A DNA stretch of 64,000 nucleotides from Naegleria gruberi (lineage: Eukaryota): assembly GCA_000004985.1 (NCBI GenBank), contig GG738918.1; one strand, written 5' to 3'. Under the pieces are notes generated by a model. The model saw only the letters and a list, made by a program, of their open reading frames with translations, was not told the origin of the DNA and ran no database searches. The position numbers were made by a program, and so were the translations under genes. Shown here in pieces: positions 8,221 to 59,681 of the stretch (positions within the stretch are counted from its first letter, which is position 1; each line of letters opens with the position of its first letter).

Positions 8221-8859
8221 TTAATGTTGTCCTGAAACAGCTTTCCATGAAGGTCTTGATGAAATCTTTTCCCACCAAGCTTTAACATGTGGACGATCCA
8301 ATAACAAATTACCCAATCCAATGGCAAACAACAAGTTTCCGTATGGCAAATGATACAAATCGGCTAAGGTAAATTGATTTCCACCAATGAATTCTTGTTT
8401 GGCCAATACTCTTTCATAGGCATCCAAATTGAGAGACAACTTTTCACTCAATTGCTTGACACGAGCTTCGTCGGCAGCTCCATATCCCATCATTCCCTTA
8501 AATAACTTTTCAAAGACTAAACCAGATGCGTTAGAATCAAAGTAAGCAGTTTCAATGGAAGCTCCTTGTTCAAATAAACCCAAAGCTTTGAGCTCAGTTG
8601 GAATAAGTTCAGTTCCTTTACTCTTGTGTTTGGCTTCCAAATAACGACAGATGGCTCGTGATTCATAAATCAAGAAACCATCATCTTCCAAGACTGGAAT
8701 GACACCAAATGGGTGCTTTTCCAAGTAGGATGGTGATTTATGTTCTCCCTTCATCAAATCAACTGGTACAAGTTCGAATTCTAAACCTTTCTCTTTAATT
8801 GTTGTCAAAACACGTTGAACACAAGTAGATTGAGCAGCACCATAAATTTTGTAGACCAT
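8221..8859 (-). CDS. Glutathione S-transferase
   Basis: 212 aa protein. N-terminal thioredoxin-like GST fold MVYKIYGAAQSTCVQRVL...HPFGVIPVLEDDGFLIYESRAICRYL, followed by a C-terminal helical domain. Confidence 0.85.
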   Translation of the reverse strand: MVYKIYGAAQSTCVQRVLTTIKEKGLEFELVPVDLMKGEHKSPSYLEKHPFGVIPVLEDDGFLIYESRAICRYLEAKHKSKGTELIPTELKALGLFEQGASIETAYFDSNASGLVFEKLFKGMMGYGAADEARVKQLSEKLSLNLDAYERVLAKQEFIGGNQFTLADLYHLPYGNLLFAIGLGNLLLDRPHVKAWWEKISSRPSWKAVSGQH

Positions 8860-9031
8860 TTTGTTGTAGTAATGTAAAGTTGTTTTTTTTGTGATTAGAA
8901 ATGCATGCTATTGAAATGCCATTTATGGTGGATTCTGTATCCGAAACCAAAGCGCTATCGTGAGCACTAATTTTAATGATCTTAGGAAATGTCGCAATAA
9001 ATGGTTTGCATTACATCCTCTTTGAAACAAC

Positions 9032-36101: not shown

Positions 36102-37199
36102 TCAAACATCAATGCAAACAAGAAATTTTAAAGAGGTTAGTGATGTTAATAATGTGACTCCTTCAGCACCAATTCTATTGTTACCAATATCAAGTGATGT
36201 CAATTGTTTCATTTCACTTATGAATTTGACTCCTTCAGCACCAATTTGATTTGCAGAAGCAGCAAGTGATGTTAATTGTTTAAGTTCACTTATTGATTCA
36301 GCTCCTTTTACACCAATTTGATTCGCAGAAATAGCAAGTGATGTTAATTGTTTAAGTTCACTTATTGATTTGGCTCCTTCATCACCGATTTGATTCGCAG
36401 AAATATAGAGTAATGTTAATTGTTCCAGTTCACTTATTGATTTGGCTCCTTCATCACCAATTTGATTTAGACAAATATCAAGTGATGTTAATTGTTTCAT
36501 TTCACTTATTGAATTAGCTCCTTTTACACCAATTCCATTATAGCATATATCAACTGATGTTAATCGCTTCATTTCACTTATGAATTTGACTCCTTCATCA
36601 CCAATTTGATTTAGACCAATATAAAGTACTGTTAATTGTTTCATTTCACTTATTGATTTGGCTCCTTCGTTACCAAATTTGTTGCTACCAATATTAAGTG
36701 ATGTTAATTGTTTCATTCCACTTATGAAATTGGCTCCTTTATCACCAATTTCATTGTTAGAAATATTAAGTGATGTTAATTGCTTCATTTCACTAATTGA
36801 TTTAGCTCCCTCTACACCAACTTGATTACAATAAATATCAAGTAATGTTAATTGTTTCATTTCACTTATAAATTTGAGTTTTTCTATGGGTTGAAGCAAC
36901 CAACAAGAAAATTTAACATTGACAATACTATTCACGAATTGACTTTTCATGCATAATTCAATTCTTTTTTCTGTAAGATTCTTTTTAAATTGAATGACAA
37001 GTTTTGCTCGTTCCTTGATCACATGAAAGAATTGTTTTGAAATTAGAGAACAATTTTGCAAAATAAAACACGAATCATCAATCATGGAAATGATTTCAAA
37101 ACAAACATCATCCGAAAATATAACATCATTGGAAAATACTTGTCGTTGGAGTTTTTGCAATTTTTGCACAAGATTTTTCTGATTTGGTGCCTCTTTCAA
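36102..37199 (-). CDS. F-box-like + RNI-type LRR protein (paralog family A); N-terminal region appears frameshifted relative to an upstream ATG at 37269
   Basis: Near-identical 24-aa repeats NQIGDEGAKSISELKQLTSL. The N-terminal block VFSNDVIFSDDVCFEIISMIDDSCFILQNCSLISKQFFHVIKERAKLVI is almost identical to the 58436..59587 gene. The in-frame start is non-ATG. MSQLERQENDDQLIN, starting at the ATG at 37269, resembles the paralog N-terminus, but it is in the -1 frame and hits TAA. Confidence 0.6.
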   Translation of the reverse strand: MKEAPNQKNLVQKLQKLQRQVFSNDVIFSDDVCFEIISMIDDSCFILQNCSLISKQFFHVIKERAKLVIQFKKNLTEKRIELCMKSQFVNSIVNVKFSCWLLQPIEKLKFISEMKQLTLLDIYCNQVGVEGAKSISEMKQLTSLNISNNEIGDKGANFISGMKQLTSLNIGSNKFGNEGAKSISEMKQLTVLYIGLNQIGDEGVKFISEMKRLTSVDICYNGIGVKGANSISEMKQLTSLDICLNQIGDEGAKSISELEQLTLLYISANQIGDEGAKSISELKQLTSLAISANQIGVKGAESISELKQLTSLAASANQIGAEGVKFISEMKQLTSLDIGNNRIGAEGVTLLTSLTSLKFLVCIDV

Positions 37200-42711: not shown

Positions 42712-43194
42712 GATATTTTTTTTAATGTTGTTGTTATTAGTATCCAGTATTTACTAGTTTTCTAGTTTGGTGTGGAATAAAACAAGAAAAGACATGGTTC
42801 AATTATTGTTATTTGTTTAAATTTGAAATATATGTAACGGTTTTCTAAAGTGCCAAGAAATCACCTCGCTTATTAACCGTTTAAAAAAAAATTAATAAAA
42901 ATCTCAACAAAATTAATTACTTCCAGTTCATCATGAGTATTATTATTATTTCCAACTAATTTTAAGTTTAATATTATTTTTCAATTTTCATCATGTAACC
43001 CCACAAGAAGGATAACAACAATTCATGACCACCACCTCCAATTCCGGATGTTACCAACAAACATAGCACGATTACTATTTTACCTCATTCCGAAGATATA
43101 AAGTGTTGCTTGGATATTTATCAACACATCAATCGCACACAAGTTTTTGAAGATACACGATGTCAACAGGACGCTAAACAAATATCATCAAAAA

Positions 43195-46100
43195 ATGTTT
43201 GAAAGTGTTGTTGCCAAAGTATTGACAGCAACTCTTGGTGATTACATTGAAAATTTAGATAAACAATCATTGTCGGTTGGTGTGTGGAATGGTAAATTTA
43301 AACTGACAGATTTGATTGTTAAAAGATCGGCACTTGATTTGTTGGATTTACCTTTTTCTGTTGTGAATGGAACTGTTGGTTTGATTGAAGCTGATATACC
43401 ATGGAAGAGTATTTCAACTTCATCAATTAAAGTTCGATTGAGTGATATCATGTTGGTGGTTCAACCGAGGAGGTGTGAAAAAATTGATGAGACAAGTGAA
43501 AGGAAGAGACAACGAATGGTGAAACAGAGAAAGTTAACACAATATGAATTGAGAAGAAAATCAGAGAATGAAGTTTCGAATGCTGCAAGCCAAGCAACAA
43601 CAACAAATCAAACAGAAGAAACCAATGAAAAGAATGAAAAGAACGAAAAGAAACAAGAAGGATTTGTGTCAAGGTTGACTGAAACCATTATTAATAATCT
43701 TCAGATTGAGATTAATAATATTCACGTTAGATATGAAGATGATTCTGATGAAAGATTCAAAGTGGTTATGGGAGCAACACTTGAATCTCTTTCCATGTCA
43801 AGTTGTGATGTCAATTGGCAGGAATCTTTCTTGGCCACAACAGCAAAAACCTTTTTTAAAAAGCTTACATTGAGAAACTTATCAGTTTACATGAATAATA
43901 ATGAAACTGAATTGTTTTCATTGATGAAGAATGATTTGGATAATAGAAAATTCATTGAACACATGAGAAATATCATTGTGGAGAAGAAGAATTATAGGAG
44001 ATTTGTTTTGAGTCCAGTGAATGGAGAGTTATTGTTATGTATGCAGAAGGATGAAGCTTTGGATTTAGAAAGGCCAAGAATTAGTGCCGAGTTGAGGTTA
44101 GAATCGGTGAATGCAACACTGGACGAAAGGCAGTACAGAAATATTCAGTCAACTCTGGATTATATTACTCAGTTTATGGAAAAACCATTCGATAGACCAA
44201 TGTTTAATTCTCAAAACGAATGTCAACAATATTTATCTCAATCAACGGATGAGAAAGTTACCCAATTCAAAAATTACATGCTCATGTTCAAGAGGAGTAA
44301 GAAAGTGGCCTGGCTACAACCATTAACAAAAGATGAAGCTGAAAAATTATTGGAATTGGAAGATTTCATCCATGTTGATGACATTATGAAACTGAGAGAG
44401 GCAGCTTATCTTGAAATTCAAATTGAGGAACAAAAGTACAAACAAAAGAAGAAGGAATCAAGCTATTGGTCCAAGTGGTTCGGTTCAATTGATAAGACTA
44501 TTGAAGTTACCGAAGAGGATCGAGTGGAATTTTCCAAGCTATTTGGATTGGAAGAAGATAAGGGGCCATCTTTTATTCTTCCTCCACATTTTGTGAATTT
44601 TGCTCTTAAAGTTAAGATTAACACTATTGGAGTCAAGCTAAGGAATGCATCAACCAGAACTGCAGCACCTGATTCGGTTGCAGTATTTGAATTGACTCAA
44701 TTATTGGTCGATTTCAAGTTAAGAGTGGAGGGTTTTAATGTAGAGGTGAGTCTTGGAGGTGTATCCGGAGTTGACAATTTCTCTACAAGAAACGAACAGA
44801 GCATTTCAGAATATTACAACTTTGTCAAAACCAATTCTGTTGGAAATTTTGTCGAGTTTAAAATGGACTCTAATCCTATGAACGGAGTGGAGCAGATGGA
44901 TTGCAAGGTTGGCAATTTGAATGTGGTGTTGAATCTTTCTCTCATTCAAAAGATGTTGTCTATTTTCATTCTACCAAAATATTTACAAAGAAGTCAATTT
45001 ACAGCACCTTCATTACCAGATACTTTGAAAATTACAAAAAAGATACTCAATGCTGAGCTAGATAGTATTAGTGTAATCATTCCTGATACTCTTTCAGGTA
45101 AAGAATACTTTCAAGCTCATTTAGGACATTCTAAATTGACCAAAATTAATGAAAAGATTGATATTTCATTGACACCTATCAAATTGTTACACATTGGAGA
45201 AGCAGAGGATTTCACCATTATTCAGCCAACTGATTTCTCAATTTCTATGGTACAGACAATTGATCAAAATTTAATAGATGTCAAGTCCACTCCATTAATG
45301 GTTGATGTTAATCCTCAAGTGGTGACTCAATTGGTTCGGTTAGGAGATACTGTTTCTCATTTCACCAACAATCCATTCGGTTCTTCAAAGGAGAGTATTC
45401 TCATTGTAAATAATGTGCAAATGAAATTACCAAAACAAGAGGAACTTTCGTCAGCTCATATCCAATTACATGACGATGGTAGATTGTTAGTTTTCAAGGA
45501 AGAATCCAGTTTAGCTCCTTCACACAATATCTATTTCAACACTGTCCAATTCCATACGGAAACTAATAGTTTCAAAGTTGTGGATTTTGAATTTGTGCTT
45601 TCAAATGCAAAAACATTTGAAGAATGGAAGAAAAACTTGGAATCTCTATTGAACAAGAGCATTTCTAAAGCCCCACTTCCACCTGCCATAGAAACAATTG
45701 TAAATTTCAGTCTGGATAGTATCGTACTGAGAGCTCTGAATGATTCTTCATCGAGTGAAGTTGTTGCCATGGCACAAGCTAATGGGCTTCACACAAATGT
45801 ACTCGCGAGACCAAATGATAACCAGGTCAAGGTAACACTCCGAGAAATCACACTCCACGATGGAAATCAAAGAAAAATATTCTTCTCAGATCACAGTACG
45901 AATATTATTGAGATTAGTATTATTCTGTGCTCAAATAAGGAATCTGAATTTGCAAGCCAACATTCTTCTAAAATGTTCCTGAATATCAAGCTTTCAGATA
46001 TGAATTTGATTTTCAATACTGGAATTATCACAAAATTATTCCTATTTTCAAAGAAGATTAATTTTGAAAAGGAAAGTCCTATTGTAATGATTACAGAAGA

Positions 46101-49100
46101 TGATTCAGAGGATATTTTCAAACATGAAATGAAATTACAAGGAGAAATTTCTAAAATCCTTGTCGATTTGGAAAGAGAAGATAGTTCCAAGTTGGCCAAT
46201 TTCTCGCTTTCCAGTTTGAATGTAAATCTTTATATGGGAAAGAATAGTTTATCGTGTGAAGGAGATATTGGTACTGCCTATCTTTCACAACCTAATTCTA
46301 CATCTACTTATCCATATATTCTTTCTCCAAAATATTTGGGCGATCGCTCACTTATTAGATTTGCATACAGTCAAACAGATGATGAGCCAGTAATGAATAT
46401 AGAAAATTCAACCCGTGTTGTAAGAGGTTTCACCGAAAAGAAATCACTAAAGCTTGCAATGGCTTCAATTCAATTCATATTCATCAGCCAATTTATTGAG
46501 GACATTCAGAGTTATTTCCAAGATGGTCCACTATGGGAAGCTTTGGAAAATGGTGGAAAAATGATTAGTGACTATTCAAAAGAATTGATTTCTCAACAGG
46601 ATAAGAAATTGGAAATTATTTCTATGGACATTAAGGTGGAAGATCCAGTTGTTATTGCTCCAATACAAGACAATACTTTCACAGTTCACTTGGGAAATAT
46701 CAGATTAACCAATAAGGGAGACTGGGTTGAGAATGGAATTCCATGTGATAGCTATTCAATGATTTTCAATAGGATGAATTTACAAACTAAAATTAATGGA
46801 ATTGAAAAGACAGTGACTTCTCCATTCAATGTTGCTCTTGGATTGAAAAGAGTTCTCAAGAAGGATCACTTTCCAAGCATGTATTTGGATATTGAAATTG
46901 TACCAAAGGTTTTATTCACTTTGGAACATGCTCAGTATTTACTCTTGTTTCAACTTATTGATTCTTTCAATAAGAAACCAAGCGAAAGTAACGAAAAGAA
47001 ACAAGCAGAAGATTTGGAAAAGAAGGATAGTCTAACACTAATTGCTTTTATTAGAATCAAGTCCTTTGAGTTGGATGTAAAATCAGTAGCTGAGAATACT
47101 GATCTGGCCAAGTTGGAAGTTGAAGATTTCCAAATGAGATATTTCAAAGAACAATCTGGAGACAATATGCAATTCCTTGTCAAATCAATAATTGGAACTG
47201 ATCTAAGAGCTGAAAAGAATGAATATTTCACACAATTTATCACCACTCATTCCAAAACTACCAAGTGCTTGTCAGGTTCAATGATTACAAGAGGAAAGAA
47301 GAATGAAATTTCCCTCCAGATCAATAATCCAATTGTTACAATTATTCCTCAAGTATTTAAGGAGCTGCAAGAGTTCTTCTCCACAATGAAACTTGCTACA
47401 GAACCTCAAGAGGAAAAGAAACCAGAAAAGGAAATTAAGGAAGATGATTTAATGATATCTGTCAAATGTAACGATATTCGTGTAGCTCTTCCTGCCAATA
47501 ATTTCAATCAATTAGCATTCGTAATGAGATGCAAACAATTCTCAATGGAAGATATTCACAATTTCAATATTCATGATTTGGATCTTTCATTCCAAAAGAA
47601 TAGAAACAAATATGATGAGTACACCAACTATATTCTTCATCCAATTAGTTTGAATGTGAGCTATACGGATACTTTAATTATTCAGACAACTAGGGCAATT
47701 AATATTCGTATTTCAACAAGTATTATTCACCAAATTAGACAAGTTATGGACATGTTTACTTCTGAACTTTCCAAAATCAAAAAGACAACTGAAACCAAAT
47801 TGCCACCTTATCAAATTAACAACTTGCCTAATAATAAGGTAGATCTTTCGTATTTCGCTAACTTTTTTGCAAGTTTCAACCAAGAAACCAGATCTGAAAC
47901 CTTTAAATTTGAAGCATATCTAGTGTCAGGAATTTCCATTCTACTTGTCACTGATCGAAATGAAATTGACTTGCCAGCTCTACAACTCGATATTGAACAA
48001 GCGATCATTTCTGATTTCATTAGAATATCCAACATTCAACTATTGTGCTTCAATTTAAACTATGGAGTTTGGGAATCACTTGTGGAACCATTCACAGTTT
48101 CTGGATCTAGAAAAGGAAGCAATTACATTCTTGATATTCCAAAATGTTTATTGAATTTCAATAAGAATACATTCGAAATATTCAAATCTATAATGGAAAG
48201 TAAGGAAAGAAGTGTCATTACGAGAACTTTCTATCCAACAATTGTCAGAAACATGCATCCAACACCAATTACTATTAATGATCAATTACTGGAAGATGGT
48301 CAGGAATATATTGTGCAGGGAGAAGTTTCTTCTATTAGTTTCATTATTAATAATCAAACTTTCGTATTCTCCTTAAAGAAGAAACCAGGAACACATATTC
48401 TATCCTCTGAATGTTTACTCACTGTGGAAATTGTTGATGGAACAAGTTATTTTACCATTCATTCTTTGTATTCCATTGAGAATCAAACAGATGTCACCTT
48501 TGAAGTGTTGTACAATTCGAAACGATGTGGAAAACTTTCACCTAATCAAGTGAAATATCTTCCAAATGCTCCATTTGACAAGACCAATTTGAAAATTAGA
48601 CCATCCTATAGTGACGAGTACATGAGTCCAACATTCGAAGATCAAAATTCATCTCAATTCATCTTTATGAATAAGACTTCCAGTTTCTATTGTGAGTACG
48701 TGGAAGATATTGGACGAAACATGAAAAATTTCACAATTTCTCCACCTCTCAAACTAGAAAATAGAACTCCTATTGAATTGGACATGGAAATTAATGGAAA
48801 GAAATTTTCCTTACAAAAAGAATCCTCACTCTATTACTACTATGCCAATAAGGATTTCTCTGTGAACATTCTGACGAATAATCCTTCATTTAGTGATCAA
48901 TCATTCAGTGCCACAACCAGCAAAACCATGCAAATTTGTACGAATGGTAAAACTATTCCTCAAAAGCAAGAACCTAAAAAATCAAAATCATTTGCTGAGA
49001 TTGTCATTCGTGCACCTTTTTGGATTTTCAATGATTTGGAATTACCTATCAATATTAATGGAATTAATATTCTACCATTCAATTATACTACTATGAACAT

Positions 49101-51360
49101 CAATAATTTGACCATTTGTAGAGATGATAAAAACAAATTTACACCTAATTTGGATAAAATTCCACATGATACCATGGATTTGTGGAAATTAGGAGATAAA
49201 AGAATGGTTTACTATTTGAGAGAAACTGATGAGAGTAAATACATGTACCTCAGAGAAAGATATTACATTAGAAACAATACCAAATTTGATTTAAACATTA
49301 CTTTCGAGAAGAATTCATTCTCAGTCGCTGCAGGAAAGACACAACCTTATTCACATTACAATGATTCACTTCCTAAAATGAAAATCACTTTGGGAGAAGA
49401 GGAAAATATTGTGGAAACTAAATGTCAACAGGAATTGTCACTCAAATTTGGAAAATTCCTAAATGCCAAGCTTTTACTTAAGGAACAGGAAGGTTCAATG
49501 TTTGTGGTGATTAATGAAATACTATTGCCTGAATTTTACGTGGTCAACTCTACAGATTTGGAAATTGTAATTGATAAGGAAGGATTAGCTCCAAAAAATA
49601 TCAAACCCTATCTCAACATGCCCCAATCTGTTATAATTGACACCATTTCAGAGATTATCACCCTTAATAAGATTACAATGAATAAGGAAACAATGAAAAA
49701 GGTTGGAGATGAAGAAATTTATTACACACTCATTCCATATCAACAAGTAATCATTCTCCACATTCACAAAAAGAAAAAGACTGAGGAGAAGGATTATGAA
49801 CTGGCAGTAGATGTTACTTTCTATTCTATTGGAATTTCGATTATTGGTGAAAGTCAGGAATTGGCTTTTATTCATTTTGATCAATTATTTACTAAATTTG
49901 GAATGCTCAATACTCAATTTTGCGTTTATACTAAATTGCGTGGACTCCAAGTTGACGATCACAATGAACAAGAGGTCAACCCAGTTCAATTTGTGAATAT
50001 CAATTCTTCAGAGCAGAGTTTCATTGAATTTACAATAGAAAAGAATGGAAACTATTTTGAAACTGTTTCAGTAACTATCAGAGAAATGTTATTTAGCTCT
50101 AACAATATTTTCATTCAAAAGATGAGTGACGTATTCGCAAGTGCCATGAAACAAATGAAAGCAGTCCAAGAAACAAAACTAAATCAATTCTTGCAATATT
50201 TTGAAGTAGAGGAAAGTGAGAAAATGTTCTTTGGAAAGTTTGAACTCAATCCATTGAAAGTCGATGCTTCTTTCAAGGTGAAACCTTCCAATGATTTGAA
50301 ATACGATTTGGTTTATATTCTTTCCTCTTATGGAACTAAATTTACACACATTGAAAATGCCATAATTAGAATTTACGATTTCAAACTTCCTCAATCCTCA
50401 TTCGTTACCATGCAAGATGTTATGGAAAGAGTTGGAAAACACTACAAACGTCAAATCAAGTACAATTTATTGTCAATTATTGGATCGTTGAATACTTTTG
50501 GAAGTCCTATTCAATTATTTGGTGATTTGGCTTCAGGAGTTACTTCTCTATTTTATGAACCTGCAAATGCCATCACTGAAGGCCCACATATGTTCTTATT
50601 GGGTGTTGGTAAGGGATCTGTTGGATTTATTTCAAATTCTGTCAAGGGAGTAACTGGTTTCACATCAACAATTACAGGAACAGTTGGAAATACGCTTTCA
50701 ATCTTTACACTTGACAGAGATTTCGTCGAGAAGAGAGACAGGATTATGGAAAGGAAACCTGCCAATATTTTCCAAGGTATTGGACAAGGTATGCAAGTTC
50801 TCTTCACAGGACTCATTGATGGAGGTGTTGGAATTATTGCTCAACCAATTAAGGGAGCTAGAAAAGAGGGAGCTTTGGGATTGGCTAAAGGAGTTGTTCT
50901 TGGAATTGTTGGAATTCCTACAAAGCCAGTAGTTGGTATGATTGATTTTAGTATCAAGCAAATGCAAGGTATTCGAAACTTTAATCAATCATCACTTCAC
51001 AAAATTAGAGAAAATCCAAGAATGTTATTTAACGGAGTGATTAAACCATACAAGGAAAATATGGAATTGTTTTTGAGATTAATCCACAAATCCCAACAAT
51101 CAATAGAGTTTAATATTTTAATTCCTTTAGGAAAGACCTTGGCAATCACCAACAGACATTTGCTCATTCCACAATCAACCAACTCTAATGCACTTCAGGT
51201 TGTTGAATTGAATCAAGTGGAAGCTATTGAACAAGTAGATGATGATAATGTCAAGATTAGAGTGGCAAATCAAACAAGTTATTGTGTTTATTTGAATGTG
51301 GAGGCAGCTACTGTTCGTGCCTTGGTTGATAAGATGTTACGTGAGTTGAGTACTAATTAA
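43195..51360 (+). CDS. VPS13: VPS13-family lipid-transfer protein (chorein-N domain), ~2720 aa single ORF
   Basis: N-terminus MFESVVAKVLTATLGDYIENLDKQSLSVGVWNGKFKLTDLIVKRSALDLLDLPFSVVNGTVGLIEADIPWKS matches the VPS13 chorein-N consensus (MLESxVAxLLNRxLGxYVENLxxxQLxxGIWxGxVxLxNLxLKxxALxxLDLP...). The size and long beta-rich repeats fit VPS13. The true ATG is at 43195; the track start is a TTG. Confidence 0.75.
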   Translation: MFESVVAKVLTATLGDYIENLDKQSLSVGVWNGKFKLTDLIVKRSALDLLDLPFSVVNGTVGLIEADIPWKSISTSSIKVRLSDIMLVVQPRRCEKIDETSERKRQRMVKQRKLTQYELRRKSENEVSNAASQATTTNQTEETNEKNEKNEKKQEGFVSRLTETIINNLQIEINNIHVRYEDDSDERFKVVMGATLESLSMSSCDVNWQESFLATTAKTFFKKLTLRNLSVYMNNNETELFSLMKNDLDNRKFIEHMRNIIVEKKNYRRFVLSPVNGELLLCMQKDEALDLERPRISAELRLESVNATLDERQYRNIQSTLDYITQFMEKPFDRPMFNSQNECQQYLSQSTDEKVTQFKNYMLMFKRSKKVAWLQPLTKDEAEKLLELEDFIHVDDIMKLREAAYLEIQIEEQKYKQKKKESSYWSKWFGSIDKTIEVTEEDRVEFSKLFGLEEDKGPSFILPPHFVNFALKVKINTIGVKLRNASTRTAAPDSVAVFELTQLLVDFKLRVEGFNVEVSLGGVSGVDNFSTRNEQSISEYYNFVKTNSVGNFVEFKMDSNPMNGVEQMDCKVGNLNVVLNLSLIQKMLSIFILPKYLQRSQFTAPSLPDTLKITKKILNAELDSISVIIPDTLSGKEYFQAHLGHSKLTKINEKIDISLTPIKLLHIGEAEDFTIIQPTDFSISMVQTIDQNLIDVKSTPLMVDVNPQVVTQLVRLGDTVSHFTNNPFGSSKESILIVNNVQMKLPKQEELSSAHIQLHDDGRLLVFKEESSLAPSHNIYFNTVQFHTETNSFKVVDFEFVLSNAKTFEEWKKNLESLLNKSISKAPLPPAIETIVNFSLDSIVLRALNDSSSSEVVAMAQANGLHTNVLARPNDNQVKVTLREITLHDGNQRKIFFSDHSTNIIEISIILCSNKESEFASQHSSKMFLNIKLSDMNLIFNTGIITKLFLFSKKINFEKESPIVMITEDDSEDIFKHEMKLQGEISKILVDLEREDSSKLANFSLSSLNVNLYMGKNSLSCEGDIGTAYLSQPNSTSTYPYILSPKYLGDRSLIRFAYSQTDDEPVMNIENSTRVVRGFTEKKSLKLAMASIQFIFISQFIEDIQSYFQDGPLWEALENGGKMISDYSKELISQQDKKLEIISMDIKVEDPVVIAPIQDNTFTVHLGNIRLTNKGDWVENGIPCDSYSMIFNRMNLQTKINGIEKTVTSPFNVALGLKRVLKKDHFPSMYLDIEIVPKVLFTLEHAQYLLLFQLIDSFNKKPSESNEKKQAEDLEKKDSLTLIAFIRIKSFELDVKSVAENTDLAKLEVEDFQMRYFKEQSGDNMQFLVKSIIGTDLRAEKNEYFTQFITTHSKTTKCLSGSMITRGKKNEISLQINNPIVTIIPQVFKELQEFFSTMKLATEPQEEKKPEKEIKEDDLMISVKCNDIRVALPANNFNQLAFVMRCKQFSMEDIHNFNIHDLDLSFQKNRNKYDEYTNYILHPISLNVSYTDTLIIQTTRAINIRISTSIIHQIRQVMDMFTSELSKIKKTTETKLPPYQINNLPNNKVDLSYFANFFASFNQETRSETFKFEAYLVSGISILLVTDRNEIDLPALQLDIEQAIISDFIRISNIQLLCFNLNYGVWESLVEPFTVSGSRKGSNYILDIPKCLLNFNKNTFEIFKSIMESKERSVITRTFYPTIVRNMHPTPITINDQLLEDGQEYIVQGEVSSISFIINNQTFVFSLKKKPGTHILSSECLLTVEIVDGTSYFTIHSLYSIENQTDVTFEVLYNSKRCGKLSPNQVKYLPNAPFDKTNLKIRPSYSDEYMSPTFEDQNSSQFIFMNKTSSFYCEYVEDIGRNMKNFTISPPLKLENRTPIELDMEINGKKFSLQKESSLYYYYANKDFSVNILTNNPSFSDQSFSATTSKTMQICTNGKTIPQKQEPKKSKSFAEIVIRAPFWIFNDLELPININGINILPFNYTTMNINNLTICRDDKNKFTPNLDKIPHDTMDLWKLGDKRMVYYLRETDESKYMYLRERYYIRNNTKFDLNITFEKNSFSVAAGKTQPYSHYNDSLPKMKITLGEEENIVETKCQQELSLKFGKFLNAKLLLKEQEGSMFVVINEILLPEFYVVNSTDLEIVIDKEGLAPKNIKPYLNMPQSVIIDTISEIITLNKITMNKETMKKVGDEEIYYTLIPYQQVIILHIHKKKKTEEKDYELAVDVTFYSIGISIIGESQELAFIHFDQLFTKFGMLNTQFCVYTKLRGLQVDDHNEQEVNPVQFVNINSSEQSFIEFTIEKNGNYFETVSVTIREMLFSSNNIFIQKMSDVFASAMKQMKAVQETKLNQFLQYFEVEESEKMFFGKFELNPLKVDASFKVKPSNDLKYDLVYILSSYGTKFTHIENAIIRIYDFKLPQSSFVTMQDVMERVGKHYKRQIKYNLLSIIGSLNTFGSPIQLFGDLASGVTSLFYEPANAITEGPHMFLLGVGKGSVGFISNSVKGVTGFTSTITGTVGNTLSIFTLDRDFVEKRDRIMERKPANIFQGIGQGMQVLFTGLIDGGVGIIAQPIKGARKEGALGLAKGVVLGIVGIPTKPVVGMIDFSIKQMQGIRNFNQSSLHKIRENPRMLFNGVIKPYKENMELFLRLIHKSQQSIEFNILIPLGKTLAITNRHLLIPQSTNSNALQVVELNQVEAIEQVDDDNVKIRVANQTSYCVYLNVEAATVRALVDKMLRELSTN

Positions 51361-51674: not shown

Positions 51675-53060
51675 TTAGAGTTTTGACAAATAAAGTTGAT
51701 TGTGTTCTCCAAGTAATGGTCCAAATTCATTCATAGGTTGTAACTCCTCTGATTGATTTCCACTGACAGTCAGTTGAATTGATTTGTAATCGAGTGCATT
51801 CTTCACCAAATTGCTGGAAGTCAACATGTTTCGTTGTTGTAATAATTCTCTATCGACCTCTTTCAATTTTCTCACTTTTGTAATTGGCAATTTCAAATCA
51901 AAAGCAAAAATCTTCTCCCACTCCTCGGCGCTCTTTTGCTCGAGCACTTTAACAATTCTCTGTTTCAATTTCGAATCATTGGAAAAGAGAAATTCAACAG
52001 TTGTAAATTGTTTCCATGAATCTTTTGGATTTTCCTTATCGTGAACACTCAAAGCTTGAATAAATCCACTCCAAAAATGTGGTTCCAAACATCCAACAGC
52101 TAATTGTCCAGATTTTGTTGGATAGATATTATATCCAAGAATGGATCCACTTAAAACACTTCGTCCTTCACTTGCCATCTTGTCAAAACCATTCAATGTC
52201 AAGGAAAGTGGCATTTGAATTGCAGAAATGGCATTATCAAACATGGAAATATCAATAACTCGATTCATTCCTCTCAAGATTCGTTCTCTTTCTTCTGTAG
52301 ATTTTACAGAATAATTTAAAGCTTCAATTTTTCTAACCATGGCCACAACTTGCAAAGCAGAGCTGTAACCTGTCAATACATCAGACAATTGAATAGGCAG
52401 TGGTTTCAATTGCTTGTTCTTTTCACTCACATCTCCAGCAACATCAAATACACCAGCAGATCCAACAGCATTCATATCATGAGCTGGAATATCCGAATAC
52501 TTTCCAATATCTTGTCCGAAAGCAGAAATCCTACAAATTATCAATTGCAAATTCTCCTCCAACAATTCCTCAATCTTTCCAACACCCAATAAGCTTTCCA
52601 ACTTTCCAGGTCTTGAACTATCAATCAAAACCTTCACAGCCTTTCTCCTCTGATCGCCATCATCATTATCATTGGAATAACAACAAATTAATCGTTTCAA
52701 CTCTTCTACGTGTTGCTTCTTTTTAAAATTCAACGAAATGGCCTGTTTTCCTCTATTAAAACAATGATAAATTAATCCCGATGATGATGATTTCCCAATT
52801 TCATCATTATTTAAATTATTATTTAAATTATTATTTAAATTATGACGATCGGAAGAAGAAGAAGGCTTCTTATTGGAAATTTCAGCCTTCTTCTTCATCA
52901 TCATTGTATTAGTAGTAATAGTTGTAGAATTATTAATTAGTGGAGGATAATATCTTGTTGGATCACCACCATTGGATTCATCTTCAATTTTAATGACAAG
53001 TGCTCCGAGATCGGACAAGAGTTGGCCATAGAGGACCAGGATAGAGGCGAGAAAGATCAA
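51675..53060 (-). CDS. CoA-transferase family III (CaiB/BaiF; AMACR-like) protein with low-complexity insertion
   Basis: N-terminal YGQLLSDLGALVIKIEDESNGGDPTRY matches the family-III signature GPxAGxLLADLGAxVIKVExPxGGDxxR. C-terminal ...LLGEHNQ. A 12-nt x3 tandem (ttatttaaatta) encodes NLNNNLNNNLNN at 52806..52846. Confidence 0.7.
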   Translation of the reverse strand: MIFLASILVLYGQLLSDLGALVIKIEDESNGGDPTRYYPPLINNSTTITTNTMMMKKKAEISNKKPSSSSDRHNLNNNLNNNLNNDEIGKSSSSGLIYHCFNRGKQAISLNFKKKQHVEELKRLICCYSNDNDDGDQRRKAVKVLIDSSRPGKLESLLGVGKIEELLEENLQLIICRISAFGQDIGKYSDIPAHDMNAVGSAGVFDVAGDVSEKNKQLKPLPIQLSDVLTGYSSALQVVAMVRKIEALNYSVKSTEERERILRGMNRVIDISMFDNAISAIQMPLSLTLNGFDKMASEGRSVLSGSILGYNIYPTKSGQLAVGCLEPHFWSGFIQALSVHDKENPKDSWKQFTTVEFLFSNDSKLKQRIVKVLEQKSAEEWEKIFAFDLKLPITKVRKLKEVDRELLQQRNMLTSSNLVKNALDYKSIQLTVSGNQSEELQPMNEFGPLLGEHNQLYLSKL

Positions 53061-53144
53061 AAACTTGAATATTGGAGAGCATTTAATGTTGTGATATTTT
53101 TTTTTAATATTAAATAGTGTATTGTAAAGTATTTAATCTTTACA

Positions 53145-54266
53145 AAGATCAATTTTTCTTTTCTCTAAAGTTGAGACACTTCCAAATCATAGGTATCAGT
53201 AGATTTCAATAACAGGAATGAAATACAGAAACAACAGTTATAATTTGGTCTCACCCGATAGGTATTTCCTGTTTTTTTCAGTTTCACCAATTTGTTTCTT
53301 ACAATCCACTCAGAAACATCTCTATTACAACATAATAAACTGAAAAGCAAACCAATAAACACTGCATCAATCAAGAAGAGGAACAATAACACTAAACCAC
53401 TTGGTAATAATCCTATGAATAGTGGATAATCAATTTCTGGTTTGTAAAGATAGAGTTGATAAATTTCAACTCCACTCTTAGAGCTATATGATGTCATTTT
53501 ACATTTGAGAGCTCCATCTTGATTTTTTTCCTTAATACATTCAGGGACATTGCATTCATATGAAAATACAGTGGGATATTGTATTTTGCTTTCTCTAAGT
53601 TTAACATAATAGAAATATTTCAGTCTTGTTGGGATACTATCAAACATACATCCAATACTTGTTGAGCTATTATTCGGTTGACAACATGGAAGAGTATTAA
53701 AATTATTACAACTCGAATTCCAATTAGTGTTGCATTCCACACATTCTGGATACGAAACCCTTCCAATAGTACTGTTCAAAACTTGAACAGAAGAAACAAT
53801 CCTCTCACAATCATTGAACGAACTCTCTACATGACTCGCAGAACCTAAAGCCAAGCCAAGACCTCCAACCAATAACAACATCCCCAGAATCACAACAAAT
53901 AGTAAACAAGCTGTATAAAAACAGTTGCACTCAGTAGCATATCTCATACTGTTGACAAGTCTGTCCGTGTTTTGTTCCTCGCGGTTTCGTTTGATTTCAA
54001 CTTTTTCTTCATATTCAATCCTTTTCTGATTCCAAAATTTTGGCTTTTCCGTCTCAAAAATTGAATAACATTGCCTATTGATATGTGAAAATGATGAATA
54101 ACTACTCGGAGTAATAAATTCAAGAATAATTGTCAGCTCATCATCATTTAATTTGTGAAAATTTCCCTTCACTTGCTTTCTTGTCATTTTTTTTCACAAG
54201 TTTGAACTCTACAGACCATGACAGGAGATCTTCACTTCAACAGTCAAAGAGAGAATTTCTTGTTTT
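53145..54266. repeat. Left arm of a ~1.15 kb inverted duplication (gene plus 5' and 3' flanks)
   Basis: The 5' flank 54188..54266 and the 3' flank AATTTTTCTTTTCTCT are reverse-complementary to 55050..55168 and ~56200..56215 respectively. Confidence 0.6.
53165..54187 (-). CDS. Cys-rich type-with-two-TM hypothetical protein, paralog A of an inverted gene pair
   Basis: 340 aa: MTRKQVKGNFHKLNDDELTIILEFITPSSYSSFSHINRQCYSIFETEKPKFWNQK.... Then the first TM (LLFVVILGMLLLVGGLGLALG), a Cys/N-glyco-rich segment (ECVECNTNWNSSCNNFNTLPCCQPNNSSTSIGCMFD), the second TM (LVLLFLFLIDAVFIGLLFSLLCC) and a short tail ending ...DTYDLEVSQL. Confidence 0.6.
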   Translation of the reverse strand: MTRKQVKGNFHKLNDDELTIILEFITPSSYSSFSHINRQCYSIFETEKPKFWNQKRIEYEEKVEIKRNREEQNTDRLVNSMRYATECNCFYTACLLFVVILGMLLLVGGLGLALGSASHVESSFNDCERIVSSVQVLNSTIGRVSYPECVECNTNWNSSCNNFNTLPCCQPNNSSTSIGCMFDSIPTRLKYFYYVKLRESKIQYPTVFSYECNVPECIKEKNQDGALKCKMTSYSSKSGVEIYQLYLYKPEIDYPLFIGLLPSGLVLLFLFLIDAVFIGLLFSLLCCNRDVSEWIVRNKLVKLKKTGNTYRVRPNYNCCFCISFLLLKSTDTYDLEVSQL

Positions 54267-55049
54267 GATTAATGTAGTTGTAATTTTTGAATTATCATAA
54301 TAAAATTACTGATTGTCACATGCTCAATTTACTCCTTGACTCAAACTATTCTTTGATTATTCGAATTTTGAATGTTTCGAACTCATCCATAAATTGTTCC
54401 CAATCATTTTACAATCCTTATTTTAAATCCAATCCCTCAAATTCAGTTGAAATGATGCGTGATAATAGATCATCATACGGATTTAACACTCTCACAACAA
54501 TAACAACATGAAAAAATCAACAAGTTAGGCTACTAATAATAATAATACACTATCAAAAGGTGCCACTTCAACCATTAATAATATATGTCCTTCAAAATCA
54601 AGTACCACAACAACAACCACTGCTCCATCTCCCACTCCTTTATGAATAAGAGAAAAATCTAAAACTTCTTCATCAAATCTTCATACAAAACAATATTCAA
54701 AACAATCCATTCAAAAAAATAATCTTAATAAGTTATCAAGGCTTCCGTTGGATTGTATTTTTTATATGTTAGAATTTGTTGGTCAATATTCAAATACAAC
54801 CAAAGGCTAATAAGAATAATAAGGAAATGTTAAATGATTCAAAGATTTATTGGAATTTATTAAAGATTGGTTCGGAAGATTTTCATAAACCAAAAAAATT
54901 TCCAATTTAATAGAGTGGATCAAATATATCTTGAAACATTGAATTATATAGTTACCGTTGATTTTAAAATTTGGAAATGGAAATATTCAATGCATAGGAA
55001 GATTTTCACGTGGCTAGATTTCTGTTAAAATCTTCATACCACTACCCTA

Positions 55050-56215
55050 ACAAAACAAGAAATTCTCTCTTTGACTCTTGAAGTGAAGAAGATTGTCAAT
55101 CTCCTAGCATGGTCTATTAAGTTCAAACTCATGGTGTTGTGTTGGTTCAAACTTGGTGTGAAAAAAAAATGACAAGAAAGCAAGCGAAGGGAAATTTTCA
55201 CAAATTAAATGATGAGCTGACAATTATTCTTGAATTTATTCCTCCGAGTAGTTATTCATCATTTTCACATATCAATAGGCAATGTTATTCAATTTTTGAG
55301 ACGGAAAAGCCAAAATTTTGGAATCAGAAATGGATTGAATATGAAGAAAAAGTTGAAATCAAACGAAACCTCGAGGAGCAAAACATGCACAGAATTGTCA
55401 ACACTATGAGACATGCTGCTGAGTGCAACCTTTTTTACATGGTTTTGCCTTTATTAATAGTTACGATTCTGGGGATGTCGTTATTGGCAGGAGGTCTTGC
55501 CTTGTCTTTTAGTTCTATGAGTCATGCAGAGAGTTGGTTTAAGGATTGTGAGAGAAATGTTTCATCTATTCAAGTTTTGAACAGTACTATTGGAAGGGTT
55601 TCGTATCCAGAATGTGTGGAATGCAACACTAACTGGAATTCAAGTTGTAATAATTTTAATATTCTTCCATGTTGTCAACCGAATAATAGCTCAACAAGTA
55701 TTGGATGTATGTTTGATAGTATTCCAACAAGAGTGAAATATTTCTTTAATTTTACAGTTAAAGATTACAAAGAAATGCATTATTCTTCAGTTTTTTCATA
55801 TGAATGCAATGTCACTGAATGCATTAAGGAAAATTATCAAGATGGAACTCTCAAATGTAAAATAACCTCATATAATACTAAGCGTGGATCATTTTATCAA
55901 CTATATGTATACAAGCCAGAAATTGATTATCCACTGTTTATAAGATTATTACCCAGTGGTTTAGTTTTATTGTTCCTTTTCTTGATTGATTTAGTGTTTA
56001 TTAGTTTGCTTTTCACTTTATTTATCGGGTTTACTTGTAAGAGAGACATGTTTGGATGGATTGTAAGAAACAAATTGATGAAATTGAAAAAAATAGGAAA
56101 TACCTATAGGGTGAGGCCAAGTTGTTGTTGTTTCTGTATTTCATTCCTGTTTTTGAAATCTACTGATACCTATGATTTAGAAGTGTCTCAACTTTAGAGA
56201 AAAGAAAAATTTGGC
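55050..56215. repeat. Right arm of the inverted duplication; spacer between the arms ~54267..55049
   Basis: The reverse complement of 55050..55168 aligns to 54188..54266 (TTTTCACA.GTTTGAAC...CATG..AGGAGAT...CTTCACTTCAA.AGTCAAAGAGAGAATTTCTTGTTTTG) with indels. Confidence 0.6.
55169..56197 (+). CDS. Cys-rich two-TM hypothetical protein, paralog B (inverted copy of 53165..54187)
   Basis: Collinear with paralog A at roughly 75-80% amino-acid identity. It starts MTRKQAKGNFHKLNDELTIILEFIPPSSYSSFSHINRQCYSIFETEKPKFWNQK and ends ...DTYDLEVSQL. The true ATG is at 55169. Confidence 0.6.
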   Translation: MTRKQAKGNFHKLNDELTIILEFIPPSSYSSFSHINRQCYSIFETEKPKFWNQKWIEYEEKVEIKRNLEEQNMHRIVNTMRHAAECNLFYMVLPLLIVTILGMSLLAGGLALSFSSMSHAESWFKDCERNVSSIQVLNSTIGRVSYPECVECNTNWNSSCNNFNILPCCQPNNSSTSIGCMFDSIPTRVKYFFNFTVKDYKEMHYSSVFSYECNVTECIKENYQDGTLKCKITSYNTKRGSFYQLYVYKPEIDYPLFIRLLPSGLVLLFLFLIDLVFISLLFTLFIGFTCKRDMFGWIVRNKLMKLKKIGNTYRVRPSCCCFCISFLFLKSTDTYDLEVSQL

Positions 56216-58435: not shown

Positions 58436-59587
58436 TCACTTATCCTTCACAATTTCATTGTAACCTATATCAAGTGATGTTAACTGTTTCATTTCACTAA
58501 TGAATTTGACTCCTTCATCACCAATTTGATTTCCACCAATATAAAGTGATTTTAATTGTTTCATTTCACTTATGAATTTGGCTCCTTCAATACCAATTTG
58601 ATTGTTATAAATATTAAGTGATATTAATTGTTTCATTTCACTTATCAATTTGGCTCCTTCATCACCAATTTGATTTCCACCAATTTCAAGTGATGTTAAT
58701 TGTTTCATTTCACTTATTGGTATGACTCCTTCAACACCAATTTCATTTCCACTAATATCAAGTGATGTTAATTGTTTCATTTCATTTATAAATTTGGCTC
58801 CTTCATCACCAATTTGATTGTTATAAATACTAAGTGATTTTAATTGTTTCATTTCACTTATGAATCTGGCTCCTTCGGCGCCAATATGATTGTTATTAAT
58901 ACTAAGTAATGTTAAATGTTTCATTTCACTTATAGATTTGGCTCCTTTATCACCAATTCTATTGTTATTAAAATCAAGTGATGTTAATTGTTTCAGTTCA
59001 CTGATTGATTTTACTCCTTCATCACCAATTCCATTTCCACTAATATCAAGTGATGTTAAATGTTTCATTTCATTTATGAATTTGACTCCTACAACACCAA
59101 TTCGATTGTAACCTATATCAAGTGATGTTAATTGTTTCATTTCACTTATAAATTTGGCTCCTTCATCACCTATTCGATTTTCGCTAATATCAAGTGATTT
59201 TAATTGTTTCATTTCAGTTATGAATTTGACTTGTATAGAGTCAAGCAACCTTCTAGAAAATTTAAGATTAACAATACTATTCATAAATTGGCTTTTCATG
59301 CATAATTCAATCCTTGTTTCTGTAAATTTTTGTTTAAATTTAATAACAAGTTTTGAACGTTCCTTGATCACATTAAAGAATTGTTTTGAAATCAAGGAAC
59401 AATTATTCAAAATAAACCACGAATCATCAATCATGGAAATTATTTCAAAACAAACATCATCTGAAAATATTTCTTGTTCAAGCTTGACAACTTTTACTTT
59501 CCCTTCCATGTTAGTATTATTATTATTGATCATGAATAGCTCTTCCGAAATTAGTTGCTTTTCAAAATCTTGTCTTTGTTTACTCAT
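58436..59587 (-). CDS. F-box-like + RNI-type LRR protein (paralog family A)
   Basis: True ATG at 59587 (MSKQRQDFEKQLISEE...). The N-terminal block IFSDDVCFEIISMIDDSWFILNNCSLISKQFFNVIKERSKLVI matches the 36102 gene. About 12 tandem 24-aa LRRs of the form NQIGDEGAKFISEMKQLTSL. Confidence 0.7.
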   Translation of the reverse strand: MSKQRQDFEKQLISEELFMINNNNTNMEGKVKVVKLEQEIFSDDVCFEIISMIDDSWFILNNCSLISKQFFNVIKERSKLVIKFKQKFTETRIELCMKSQFMNSIVNLKFSRRLLDSIQVKFITEMKQLKSLDISENRIGDEGAKFISEMKQLTSLDIGYNRIGVVGVKFINEMKHLTSLDISGNGIGDEGVKSISELKQLTSLDFNNNRIGDKGAKSISEMKHLTLLSINNNHIGAEGARFISEMKQLKSLSIYNNQIGDEGAKFINEMKQLTSLDISGNEIGVEGVIPISEMKQLTSLEIGGNQIGDEGAKLISEMKQLISLNIYNNQIGIEGAKFISEMKQLKSLYIGGNQIGDEGVKFISEMKQLTSLDIGYNEIVKDK

Positions 59588-59681
59588 TTTTTTTGGCAAG
59601 GAGCATTACAATGAAAAAGAAGGAAGTAAATTGATTTAGAAGAGTTATTGAGAATATAAAGATGAGCTATAATAGTATGTA

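What the first reader, a model, noticed from the sequence alone, without database searches (positions are those of the whole stretch)
53145..56215. Head-to-head inverted duplication of a Cys-rich two-TM protein gene
Two full-length paralogs, 53165..54187 on the minus strand and 55169..56197 on the plus strand, are transcribed divergently from a spacer of about 0.8 kb. The homology extends into both the 5' and 3' flanks, so the whole ~1.15 kb gene unit was duplicated in inverted orientation. The proteins are roughly 75-80% identical. They keep every Cys and most N-x-S/T sites of the ectodomain, which suggests both copies are under constraint. The encoded protein has a short cytosolic N-terminus, a first TM, a Cys-rich glycosylated loop, a second TM and a conserved tail (DTYDLEVSQL). 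It has no family I can name, so it may be a lineage-specific surface/secretory-pathway protein pair sharing a bidirectional promoter.
Basis: seen in the sequence. Interest (0 to 1): 0.6.

Follow-up and report, generated by a model that had tools for sequence, protein, structure and literature searches.

The report
Inverted paralog pair, Naegleria membrane protein
Two neighbouring, oppositely oriented copies of one gene in the amoeba Naegleria gruberi encode a species-restricted membrane protein that probably starts with an F-box-like module; this is a real but ordinary local gene duplication, and both genes are already annotated as hypothetical proteins.

Summary
Two intact ORFs, 53165..54187 (-) and 55169..56197 (+), lie head-to-head. 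They are 78% identical as proteins. The duplicated units (53151..54267 and 55051..56211) are 89.5% identical as DNA and flank a unique 783-nt spacer.

The window is Naegleria gruberi nuclear DNA. The genes are the annotated hypothetical proteins NAEGRDRAFT_74842 and NAEGRDRAFT_74843. A metagenome contig about 95% identical to the window shows the same layout, so this is not an assembly artefact.

All six coding indels are in frame. All 10 Cys of the loop are kept. dN/dS is 0.58 overall and 0.25-0.5 from the loop to the C-terminus, so constraint is real but moderate. In the related contig, copy A carries two disabling deletions.

It scores just below the Pfam threshold in both copies and in a third, distant member. 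An exhaustive HMMER search found no relatives outside Naegleria-like DNA.

Each copy carries its own conserved proximal upstream stretch, so a shared bidirectional promoter is not required.

My best reading is a lineage-restricted two-pass membrane glycoprotein pair, possibly membrane-anchored SCF adaptors. Interest is low to moderate.

The parts
53151..54267 (-). Arm A: the duplicated gene unit (14 nt of 3' flank, CDS, about 80 nt of 5' flank)
   Evidence: Inverted-repeat pairs I1-I9. Pairwise alignment and arm boundaries, 89.5% identity.
53165..54187 (-). CDS of copy A, 340 aa. This is NAEGRDRAFT_74842 (XP_002670212.1, UniProt D2W0F8, named 'F-box domain-containing protein').
   Evidence: ORF list. 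Exact-sequence look-up.
54035..54160 (-). F-box-like module of copy A (residues 10-51)
   Evidence: Pfam PF00646: E = 0.014, 15.8 bits, model positions 2-42 of 43, below the cut-off of 20.5. 62% identical to the N-terminus of P0004.
53840..53920 (-). First hydrophobic (transmembrane) segment of copy A (about residues 90-116)
   Evidence: Kyte-Doolittle 19-residue window peaks at 2.79. More K+R on the N-terminal side.
53432..53833 (-). Cys-rich loop of copy A (about residues 119-252): 10 Cys and 4 N-x-S/T sites
   Evidence: No Pfam or PDB sequence match.
53327..53425 (-). Second hydrophobic segment of copy A (about residues 255-287)
   Evidence: Kyte-Doolittle peak 2.77. Four K+R on the C-terminal side.
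53168..53326 (-). C-terminal tail of copy A, with a CCFC cluster and the invariant ending STDTYDLEVSQL
54188..54267 (-). Conserved proximal upstream region of copy A (presumed 5' UTR and core promoter). It contains a short uORF (54219..54184) whose TGA overlaps the main ATG.
   Evidence: 90% identical to the upstream region of copy B and conserved in L001. uORF.
54268..55050 (.). Unique spacer between the arms. It is not part of the duplication.
   Evidence: No similarity to either arm or to the rest of the window. 81.6% identical with many gaps to L001, against 95% for the genes. No Rfam or tRNA hit.
55051..56211 (+). Arm B: the duplicated gene unit (about 118 nt of 5' flank, CDS, 14 nt of 3' flank)
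55051..55168 (+). Conserved proximal upstream region of copy B, with 10-nt and 28-nt insertions relative to A. Its uORF (55131..55172) also ends in a TGA that overlaps the main ATG.
55169..56197 (+). CDS of copy B, 342 aa. This is NAEGRDRAFT_74843 (XP_002670168.1, UniProt D2W0F9).
   Evidence: 100% identical to P0001. Names.
55196..55318 (+). F-box-like module of copy B (residues 10-50)
   Evidence: Pfam PF00646: E = 0.23, 11.9 bits, below the cut-off
55523..55924 (+). Cys-rich loop of copy B: the same 10 Cys and 7 N-x-S/T sites

Best explanation
This is a genuine local inverted (head-to-head) duplication of one intronless Naegleria gruberi gene. It is older than the split between the reference strain and a relative about 5% diverged.

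Each 1.1-kb unit carried along its own proximal upstream region of roughly 80-120 nt, which is presumably the 5' UTR and core promoter. The two copies can therefore be transcribed independently and divergently. The 783-nt unique spacer between them evolves fast.

The 5' third of the genes has been kept unusually similar, most likely by gene conversion between the arms.

The product is a protein restricted to Naegleria-like organisms. Its inferred topology runs as follows:
- a cytosolic N-terminus of about 85 residues, made of an F-box-like helical module and a charged helix;
- a first membrane span;
- a luminal or extracellular loop of about 135 residues with 10 conserved Cys and 4-7 N-glycosylation sequons;
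- a second long hydrophobic segment;
- a cytosolic tail of about 55 residues with a Cys cluster and an invariant C-terminal peptide.

The most likely mode of action is inferred, not shown. The protein would be a membrane-anchored adaptor that recruits Skp1/cullin ubiquitin-ligase machinery to a secretory-pathway or surface membrane through its F-box-like module. The disulfide-bonded loop and the tail would supply specificity.

Constraint is moderate, and one copy appears dispensable in a related strain.
For: Shown:
- Arms are 89.5% identical against about 44% background just outside them.
- Both ORFs are intact. All six indels are in frame (P = 0.0014). An open 340-codon frame has P of about 2e-12.
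- The window is N. gruberi and both genes are annotated.
- The same layout appears in the independent contig L001.
- There is an excess of synonymous change. A versus B gives omega 0.58 (P = 0.011). From the loop to the C-terminus, omega is 0.25-0.5 (P = 0.002). Reference A versus L001 A gives omega 0.34 (P = 0.009).
- The 5' part is homogenised. There is 1 synonymous difference in the first 75 codons against about 30 in the rest (Fisher P = 0.007). The longest identical run is 89 nt (permutation P = 0.003). One site is shared by both copies within each strain but differs between strains.
- Topology: two hydrophobic segments, K/R bias on the cytosolic sides, and 10/10 Cys plus the sequons confined to the loop.
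- F-box-like module: Pfam F-box is the best hit across the whole model for A, B and P0004 (E = 0.014, 0.23, 0.001). UniProt names copy A an F-box protein. hhalign places it in the right register. AF2 predicts helices at residues 15-24 and 27-40, with a further helix at 49-71.
- P0004 shares the N-terminal module at 62% identity and has the same F-box-like / TM / Cys+sequon loop / TM layout with an unrelated loop sequence.

Precedent: Arabidopsis CFB is a Skp1-binding F-box protein that is membrane-localised through a transmembrane domain (PMC5853388).
Against: - All Pfam F-box scores are below the gathering cut-off of 20.5 bits.
- The hallmark Pro and Trp of the F-box are replaced here by Asn and Tyr.
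- There are no expression, localisation or Skp1-binding data, and no literature on these genes.
- dN/dS in codons 1-118 is at or above 1, on few changes.
- Copy A in L001 lacks its ATG and first 15 or so codons and has a 1-nt deletion in the second hydrophobic segment.
- The hydrophobic segments are 35-38 residues long, so the second could be a hairpin. That would put the tail on the other side of the membrane.
Confidence: 0.55

Rival explanations
1. The pair encodes lineage-specific membrane glycoproteins whose N-terminal F-box resemblance is degenerate or coincidental. They would have nothing to do with SCF ubiquitin ligases and might be surface, adhesion or secretory-pathway proteins. The duplicates would be largely redundant and drifting, with one copy on its way to becoming a pseudogene.
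For: - F-box scores are below threshold in every member, and the key Pro and Trp are missing.
- No structural match to F-box proteins.
- Overall omega is 0.58, and at or above 1 in the first 118 codons.
- Copy A in L001 has two disabling lesions.
- There are no detectable homologues outside Naegleria-like DNA.
Against: - The 42-residue N-terminal module is the only part conserved between the pair and the distant member P0004 (62% identity). It is also the part that hits F-box, over the full model length and at the N-terminal position typical of F-box proteins.
- Both reference copies are intact with only in-frame indels, and omega is significantly below 1 from the loop to the C-terminus.
Confidence: 0.33
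2. One reading: the two genes are co-expressed from one shared bidirectional promoter in the spacer.
For: The genes are divergent with 981 nt between their ATGs, and no other gene, tRNA or Rfam RNA lies in between.
Against: - Each arm retains its own copy of the proximal 80-118 nt upstream, at 90% identity. This is as conserved as the CDS and is also conserved in L001.
- The unique central spacer is the least conserved segment between strains, at 81.6% with 81 gaps.
- Duplicated unidirectional promoters explain the data without any shared element.
- This was not tested directly.
Confidence: 0.2
3. The inverted repeat is not a gene pair. It would be the long terminal inverted repeats of a foldback-type mobile element, or an assembly or haplotype artefact.
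For: The geometry alone fits: 1.1-kb inverted arms around a 0.8-kb core.
Against: - The arms are full-length open frames with only in-frame indels and omega below 1.
- No target-site duplication: the outer flanks CTTTACAAAGATC and TGGCACCTGCT do not match.
- No other copy in the 64-kb window.
- No transposase in the core.
- The arms differ by 10%, and an independent metagenome assembly reproduces the arrangement at the same position next to the CoA-transferase gene.
Confidence: 0.02

Closest known systems
F-box domain proteins (Pfam PF00646), the substrate receptors of SCF ubiquitin ligases
   Same: A roughly 40-residue N-terminal helical module. Its hydrophobic register (L-x-D-E-L-x-I-I-L-x-F-I ... 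I-N-R-x-C-Y-x-I) aligns with the whole F-box model. F-box is the top Pfam hit in all three family members, and UniProt names copy A accordingly.
   Different: Scores are below the curated cut-off. The Skp1-contacting Pro and the conserved Trp are replaced. There is no LRR, WD40, Kelch or other known substrate-binding domain. Instead the module is followed by two membrane segments and a Cys-rich luminal loop. Skp1 binding is untested.
Arabidopsis CFB (AT3G44326) and its two relatives: F-box proteins with a transmembrane domain (PMC5853388)
   Same: An intronless gene of about 360 codons, with an N-terminal F-box, no other known domain, and membrane anchoring through a hydrophobic helix. CFB binds the Skp1 homologue ASK1 in an F-box-dependent way.
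   Different: CFB has a single C-terminal transmembrane helix and no luminal Cys-rich glycosylated loop. No sequence similarity was detected: the exhaustive search returned only Naegleria-like proteins.
P0004, a 254-aa protein from metagenome ERZ929261 (locus L002), the only distant relative found
   Same: 62% identity over the 42-residue N-terminal module. It has the same order of parts: F-box-like module, hydrophobic segment, loop with Cys and 5 sequons, hydrophobic segment.
   Different: The loop is unrelated in sequence (6 Cys in a different pattern). There is no C-terminal tail. It sits at a different locus, next to Ras-family GTPase genes.
Divergently arranged young paralog pairs made by local inverted segmental duplication, with gene conversion between the arms
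   Same: Head-to-head orientation, arms that include short flanks, a mosaic of divergence with a homogenised 5' part, and one site that changed in parallel in both copies of each strain.
   Different: Nothing unusual was seen. Conversion is inferred from divergence patterns, not from a phylogeny of many strains.

Membership tests
F-box domain family (PF00646) | Score at or above Pfam's gathering cut-off (20.5 bits) | tested here: not met
   A scores 15.8 bits (E = 0.014), B 11.9 bits (E = 0.23), and P0004 19.3 bits (E = 0.001). All cover nearly the full 43-position model. The module is therefore described as F-box-like and not filed as a confirmed member.
F-box domain family (PF00646) | Conserved sequence register, including L-P at the start and C/S-K-x-W in helix 3 | tested here: inconclusive
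Pro is replaced by Asn and Trp by Tyr.
F-box domain family (PF00646) | Three-helix fold that superposes on solved F-box domains | tested here: inconclusive
F-box domain family (PF00646) | Binds Skp1 and assembles into an SCF complex | not testable with these tools
   This needs yeast two-hybrid, pull-down or complex modelling with Naegleria Skp1.
Two-pass integral membrane glycoprotein (N-in, C-in) | Two hydrophobic segments long enough to span a bilayer, with charge bias consistent with a luminal loop | tested here: met
   Kyte-Doolittle peaks of 2.4-2.9 at residues ~84-118 and ~252-290 in both copies. There are more K+R before the first and after the second segment. The 35-38-residue lengths leave a hairpin possible.
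Two-pass integral membrane glycoprotein (N-in, C-in) | Loop carries disulfide-forming Cys and used N-glycosylation sites | tested here: inconclusive
   10/10 Cys and 4 sequons are conserved and confined to the loop. Actual glycosylation and disulfides cannot be tested here.
Local inverted segmental duplication of a gene | Arms align beyond the CDS, both frames are intact, and the arrangement is reproduced in an independent assembly | tested here: met
Bidirectional-promoter gene pair | Divergent genes with start sites less than about 1 kb apart and correlated expression from a shared element | not testable with these tools
   The ATG-to-ATG distance is 981 nt, so the geometry is borderline. Each arm has its own conserved upstream stretch, and the central spacer is poorly conserved. 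No expression data were available.
Foldback or TIR mobile element | Target-site duplication, multiple genomic copies, and non-coding or transposase-coding content | tested here: not met
   No target-site duplication at the outer arm ends. No other copy in the window. The arms are conserved ORFs.

The most novel reading that the evidence does not exclude
The pair, together with P0004, would define a Naegleria-restricted class of integral-membrane F-box proteins. In this class a cytosolic Skp1-binding module is wired through the membrane to a fast-evolving, disulfide-rich, glycosylated ectodomain. That would make it a transmembrane SCF receptor coupling recognition on the luminal or extracellular side to ubiquitination on the cytosolic side. 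Only the F-box-like module is conserved among members while the loop is replaced, which would fit a diversifying recognition domain.
Probability: 0.2. Interest if true: 0.5.

Novelty: new member of a known kind. Interest (0 to 1): 0.25.

Why it matters
As a genome feature it is ordinary. It is one more young, partly homogenised inverted gene duplicate in a protist genome, and both genes are already in the public annotation.

Its modest value lies in the protein. An F-box-like module followed by two membrane segments and a Cys-rich luminal loop is an uncommon architecture, and the family is taxonomically restricted. If Skp1 binding were shown, it would add a transmembrane type of SCF adaptor in a deep-branching eukaryote (Heterolobosea).

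The locus also gives a small, clean case of gene conversion and of differential loss of one duplicate between closely related strains.

Tried and rejected
- Word-index homology searches with copy A, with P0004 and with the N-terminal alignment returned only the paralog, only P0004 itself, and nothing, respectively.
- An exhaustive HMMER profile search of 1.84 billion representatives returned only P0003 (a fragment of the L001 orthologue) and P0004.
- Scans of JGI metagenome contigs and of viral contigs found no relatives.
- The full-length AF2 model had pLDDT 39.9 and was unusable, so it was not sent to fold search.
- PDB sequence searches with the N-terminal profile and with the loop gave one spurious repeat-protein hit and nothing, respectively.
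- The Pfam Hanta_Gc_C hit (E = 0.027, residues 222-290) lies over the hydrophobic segment and was judged compositional.
- A tempting F-box-like string in the spacer (LSRLPLDCIFYMLEFV, 54733..54780) has no Pfam support. It needs a frameshift to continue, is interrupted by stops in both strains, and matches nothing else in the window. It was rejected as a gene.
- No Rfam family or tRNA lies in the locus.
- The bacterial promoter and terminator scan is irrelevant for a eukaryote and was ignored.
- A search of the window's ORFs with a profile of the N-terminal module found no further convincing copies. The best was E = 0.02 over 15 residues at 8926..9144.
- A literature search for the locus tags, accessions and the metagenome project found nothing.
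- The clustered sites at CDS nt 320-400 where L001 A matches reference B looked like a conversion tract. They are interleaved with sites where L001 A matches reference A, so no clean tract can be claimed.
Full report
OBSERVATION

Copy A is 53165..54187 on the minus strand (340 aa). Copy B is 55169..56197 on the plus strand (342 aa). The 352-aa version of B in the ORF list starts at a GTG only because the tool uses bacterial start codons.

BLASTP gives 269/345 identical residues (78%) with 8 gap positions. The repeat finder tiles the locus with nine inverted-repeat pairs of 83-98% complementarity. From the pairwise alignment, the duplicated units are 53151..54267 and 55051..56211. They share 992 of 1108 aligned bases (89.5%). 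The 150-200 columns just outside drop to about 44%, which is background for this AT-rich DNA.

Homology passes the CDS on both sides, but unequally. About 80 aligned nt lie upstream of the ATG at 90% identity, interrupted by 10- and 28-nt indels. Only 14 nt lie after the stop, at 100% identity. The unique spacer is 54268..55050 (783 nt), and the two ATGs are 981 nt apart.

All ten Cys of the inter-membrane loop are conserved. The four N-x-S/T sites of A are all shared with B, which has three more. The tail STDTYDLEVSQL is identical.

SOURCE AND STATUS

Copy B is 100% identical to NAEGRDRAFT_74843, a hypothetical protein of Naegleria gruberi. Copy A is NAEGRDRAFT_74842, which UniProt (D2W0F8) labels 'F-box domain-containing protein'. 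Both lie on a 222-kb scaffold.

The rest of the window carries ordinary eukaryotic genes: a VPS13-like protein, PSME4/Blm10, an ARID protein, PP5 phosphatase, gelsolin, a G-alpha subunit, LRR proteins and a CoA-transferase. GC content is 30-35%. So this is nuclear DNA of a heterolobosean amoeba, and both genes are already annotated. No paper in the library mentions them.

IS IT REAL, AND IS IT CODING?

An independent metagenome contig, L001 (ENA ERZ929261, 3031 bp), matches the window in three pieces:
- 52276..54140 at 95% identity (the CoA-transferase gene plus copy A);
- the spacer at 81.6% identity with 81 gap positions;
- 54935..55326 at 95% identity (upstream region and start of copy B).

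The order and orientation are the same as in the window. The arrangement is therefore not an assembly or haplotype artefact, and the duplication predates the split of the two organisms.

The arms are coding. All six indels inside the CDS are multiples of three (chance 0.0014). An open 340-codon frame has probability of about 2e-12 at this composition.

Nei-Gojobori estimates for A versus B are dS 0.177 and dN 0.102, giving omega 0.58. The excess of synonymous change is significant (P = 0.011). It comes from the loop, the second hydrophobic segment and the tail (omega 0.25-0.5, P = 0.002). Codons 1-118 show no such excess.

Reference A versus L001 A gives dS 0.058, dN 0.020 and omega 0.34 (P = 0.009). 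Constraint is therefore real but moderate.

A transposon reading fails. There is no target-site duplication, no other copy in the window and no transposase.

MOSAIC DIVERGENCE

The first 75 codons carry one synonymous difference, against about 30 in the remainder (Fisher P = 0.007). The longest identical run is 89 nt (permutation P = 0.003).

In the four-way alignment of the 5' ends, one site reads G in both reference copies and A in both L001 copies. Together these points suggest gene conversion between the arms in the 5' third. This is an inference from few sites.

ONE COPY MAY BE DISPENSABLE

In L001, copy A lacks about 57 nt, including the ATG and the first 15 or so codons (junction at L001 1182/1183). 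It also has a 1-nt deletion in the second hydrophobic segment, equivalent to window 53397..53413. The gene caller therefore found only a 164-aa fragment, P0003.

These lesions sit in a single metagenome contig, so they need confirmation. Indel differences also run the other way: the reference has a 2-nt deletion in the neighbouring CoA-transferase gene relative to L001.

WHAT THE PROTEIN IS

Pfam finds no family above threshold. However, F-box (PF00646) is the top hit for both copies, covering almost the entire 43-position model at residues ~10-51 (E = 0.014 and 0.23).

The exhaustive HMMER search of 1.84 billion representative proteins returned only two sequences. One is P0003. The other is P0004, a 254-aa protein from the same metagenome but a different locus, next to Ras-family genes.

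P0004 matches only over the N-terminal module, at 62% identity over 42 residues. It hits Pfam F-box at E = 0.001 and 19.3 bits, against a cut-off of 20.5. It has the same order of parts: module, hydrophobic segment, a loop with Cys and sequons, hydrophobic segment. Its loop sequence is unrelated. The N-terminal module is thus the conserved core of a tiny family.

Other tests of the F-box assignment were weaker:
The hallmark Pro and Trp are Asn and Tyr here.
- AF2 on residues 1-72 gives pLDDT 65.6, with helices at 15-24, 27-40 and 49-71.
- The full-length model was unusable, with pLDDT 39.9.

I therefore call the module F-box-like and probable, at roughly 60-70%. It is not a confirmed member.

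The loop has no match in Pfam or among PDB sequences. No relatives turned up in JGI metagenome or viral contigs.

TOPOLOGY (INFERRED)

Hydrophobic segments lie at residues ~84-118 and ~252-290. Basic residues are enriched before the first and after the second. All sequons and ten Cys lie between them.

This fits an N-in/C-in two-pass protein with a luminal or extracellular disulfide-bonded, glycosylated loop. The F-box-like module and the tail would be in the cytosol, which is where an F-box must sit to meet Skp1. The segments are long (35-38 residues), so a hairpin in the second cannot be excluded.

REGULATION

Each arm retains its own proximal upstream stretch. It is 90% identical between the paralogs and is also conserved in L001. 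The central spacer is the least conserved part of the locus between strains. It contains no RNA family, no tRNA and no credible ORF.

Duplicated unidirectional promoters are the simpler reading. A shared bidirectional promoter is neither required nor excluded. Both copies also carry a short upstream ORF whose TGA overlaps the main ATG. Its relevance depends on where transcription starts, which is unknown.

COMPARISON WITH KNOWN SYSTEMS

The closest functional analogue I could document is Arabidopsis CFB. It is an intronless gene of about 360 codons whose product has an N-terminal F-box, one C-terminal transmembrane helix and no other domain. It binds ASK1 and partly localises to membranes (PMC5853388).

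The Naegleria proteins differ in having two membrane segments and a Cys-rich loop, and they show no sequence relationship to CFB. As a genomic event, the locus is a standard local inverted duplication with partial homogenisation.

VERDICT

The feature is a real, already-annotated, lineage-restricted paralog pair. Interest is low to moderate (0.25).

The most novel reading not excluded is a transmembrane SCF adaptor family with a diversifying ectodomain. I give it a probability of about 0.2.

Noticed in passing
window 53028..53082 (-), start of the CoA-transferase III gene 51675..53082; compare L001 2240..2310: The reference lacks 2 nt (TG) that are present in L001. In the window this puts the conserved ATG (53082..53080) and the first 17 or so codons (MLSNIQVFDLSRLYPGP) out of frame with the rest of the CoA-transferase. 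In L001 the frame is continuous (…PGPLCGQLLSDLGALVIKIEDE…). It could be a real frameshift, an assembly error, or something the annotation handles in its gene model.
   Followed up: partly
L001 1182/1183 and 1910..1925 (equivalent to window 54141..54196 and 53397..53413): In the metagenome relative, about 95% identical to the window, copy A has lost about 57 nt including its ATG. It also has a 1-nt deletion in the second hydrophobic segment, so only a 164-184-aa fragment remains open. The start of copy B is intact in the same contig.
   Followed up: partly
window 54219..54184 (-) and 55131..55172 (+): Both copies have a short upstream ORF (MVCRVQTCEKK* and MVLCWFKLGVKKK*) whose TGA stop overlaps the main ATG (ATGA). 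This could be translational coupling or repression if transcription starts upstream. The transcription starts are unknown.
   Followed up: no
window 54733..54780 and 54824..54868 (+), inside the unique spacer: The peptide strings LSRLPLDCIFYMLEFV and EMLNDSKIYWNLLKI resemble the two halves of an F-box. They are in different frames, flanked by stops, and conserved with the same frame break in L001. There is no Pfam hit. They may be a very decayed gene relic or just chance.
   Followed up: yes
L002 1348..2112 (+), metagenome ERZ929261 contig k127_369749: A third, distant family member (P0004, 254 aa) has the same F-box-like / TM / Cys+sequon loop / TM layout. It lies next to Ras-family GTPase gene fragments. 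No orthologue appeared among N. gruberi proteins in the database search, so it may be unannotated or absent in NEG-M.
   Followed up: partly
window 58436..59599 (-) and 36102..37199 (-): Two proteins consist almost entirely of LRR_6 (ribonuclease-inhibitor-type) repeats, with E = 2e-57 and 2e-42. The first has an N-terminal stretch that looks F-box-like by eye (DDVCFEIISMI…ISKQFFNVI) but has no Pfam F-box hit.
   Followed up: partly
window 43147..51360 (+): A single uninterrupted ORF of 2737 codons with a VPS13 N-terminal domain (E = 2.6e-83). This very long, apparently intronless gene lies about 1.8 kb from copy A, with the CoA-transferase gene in between.
   Followed up: no
window 8926..9144 (-): This is the best extra match in the window to the profile of the N-terminal module (E = 0.02, 15 residues). 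It lies just upstream of ORF 8221..8859 (-). It may be an F-box-like first exon of that gene, or chance.
   Followed up: no
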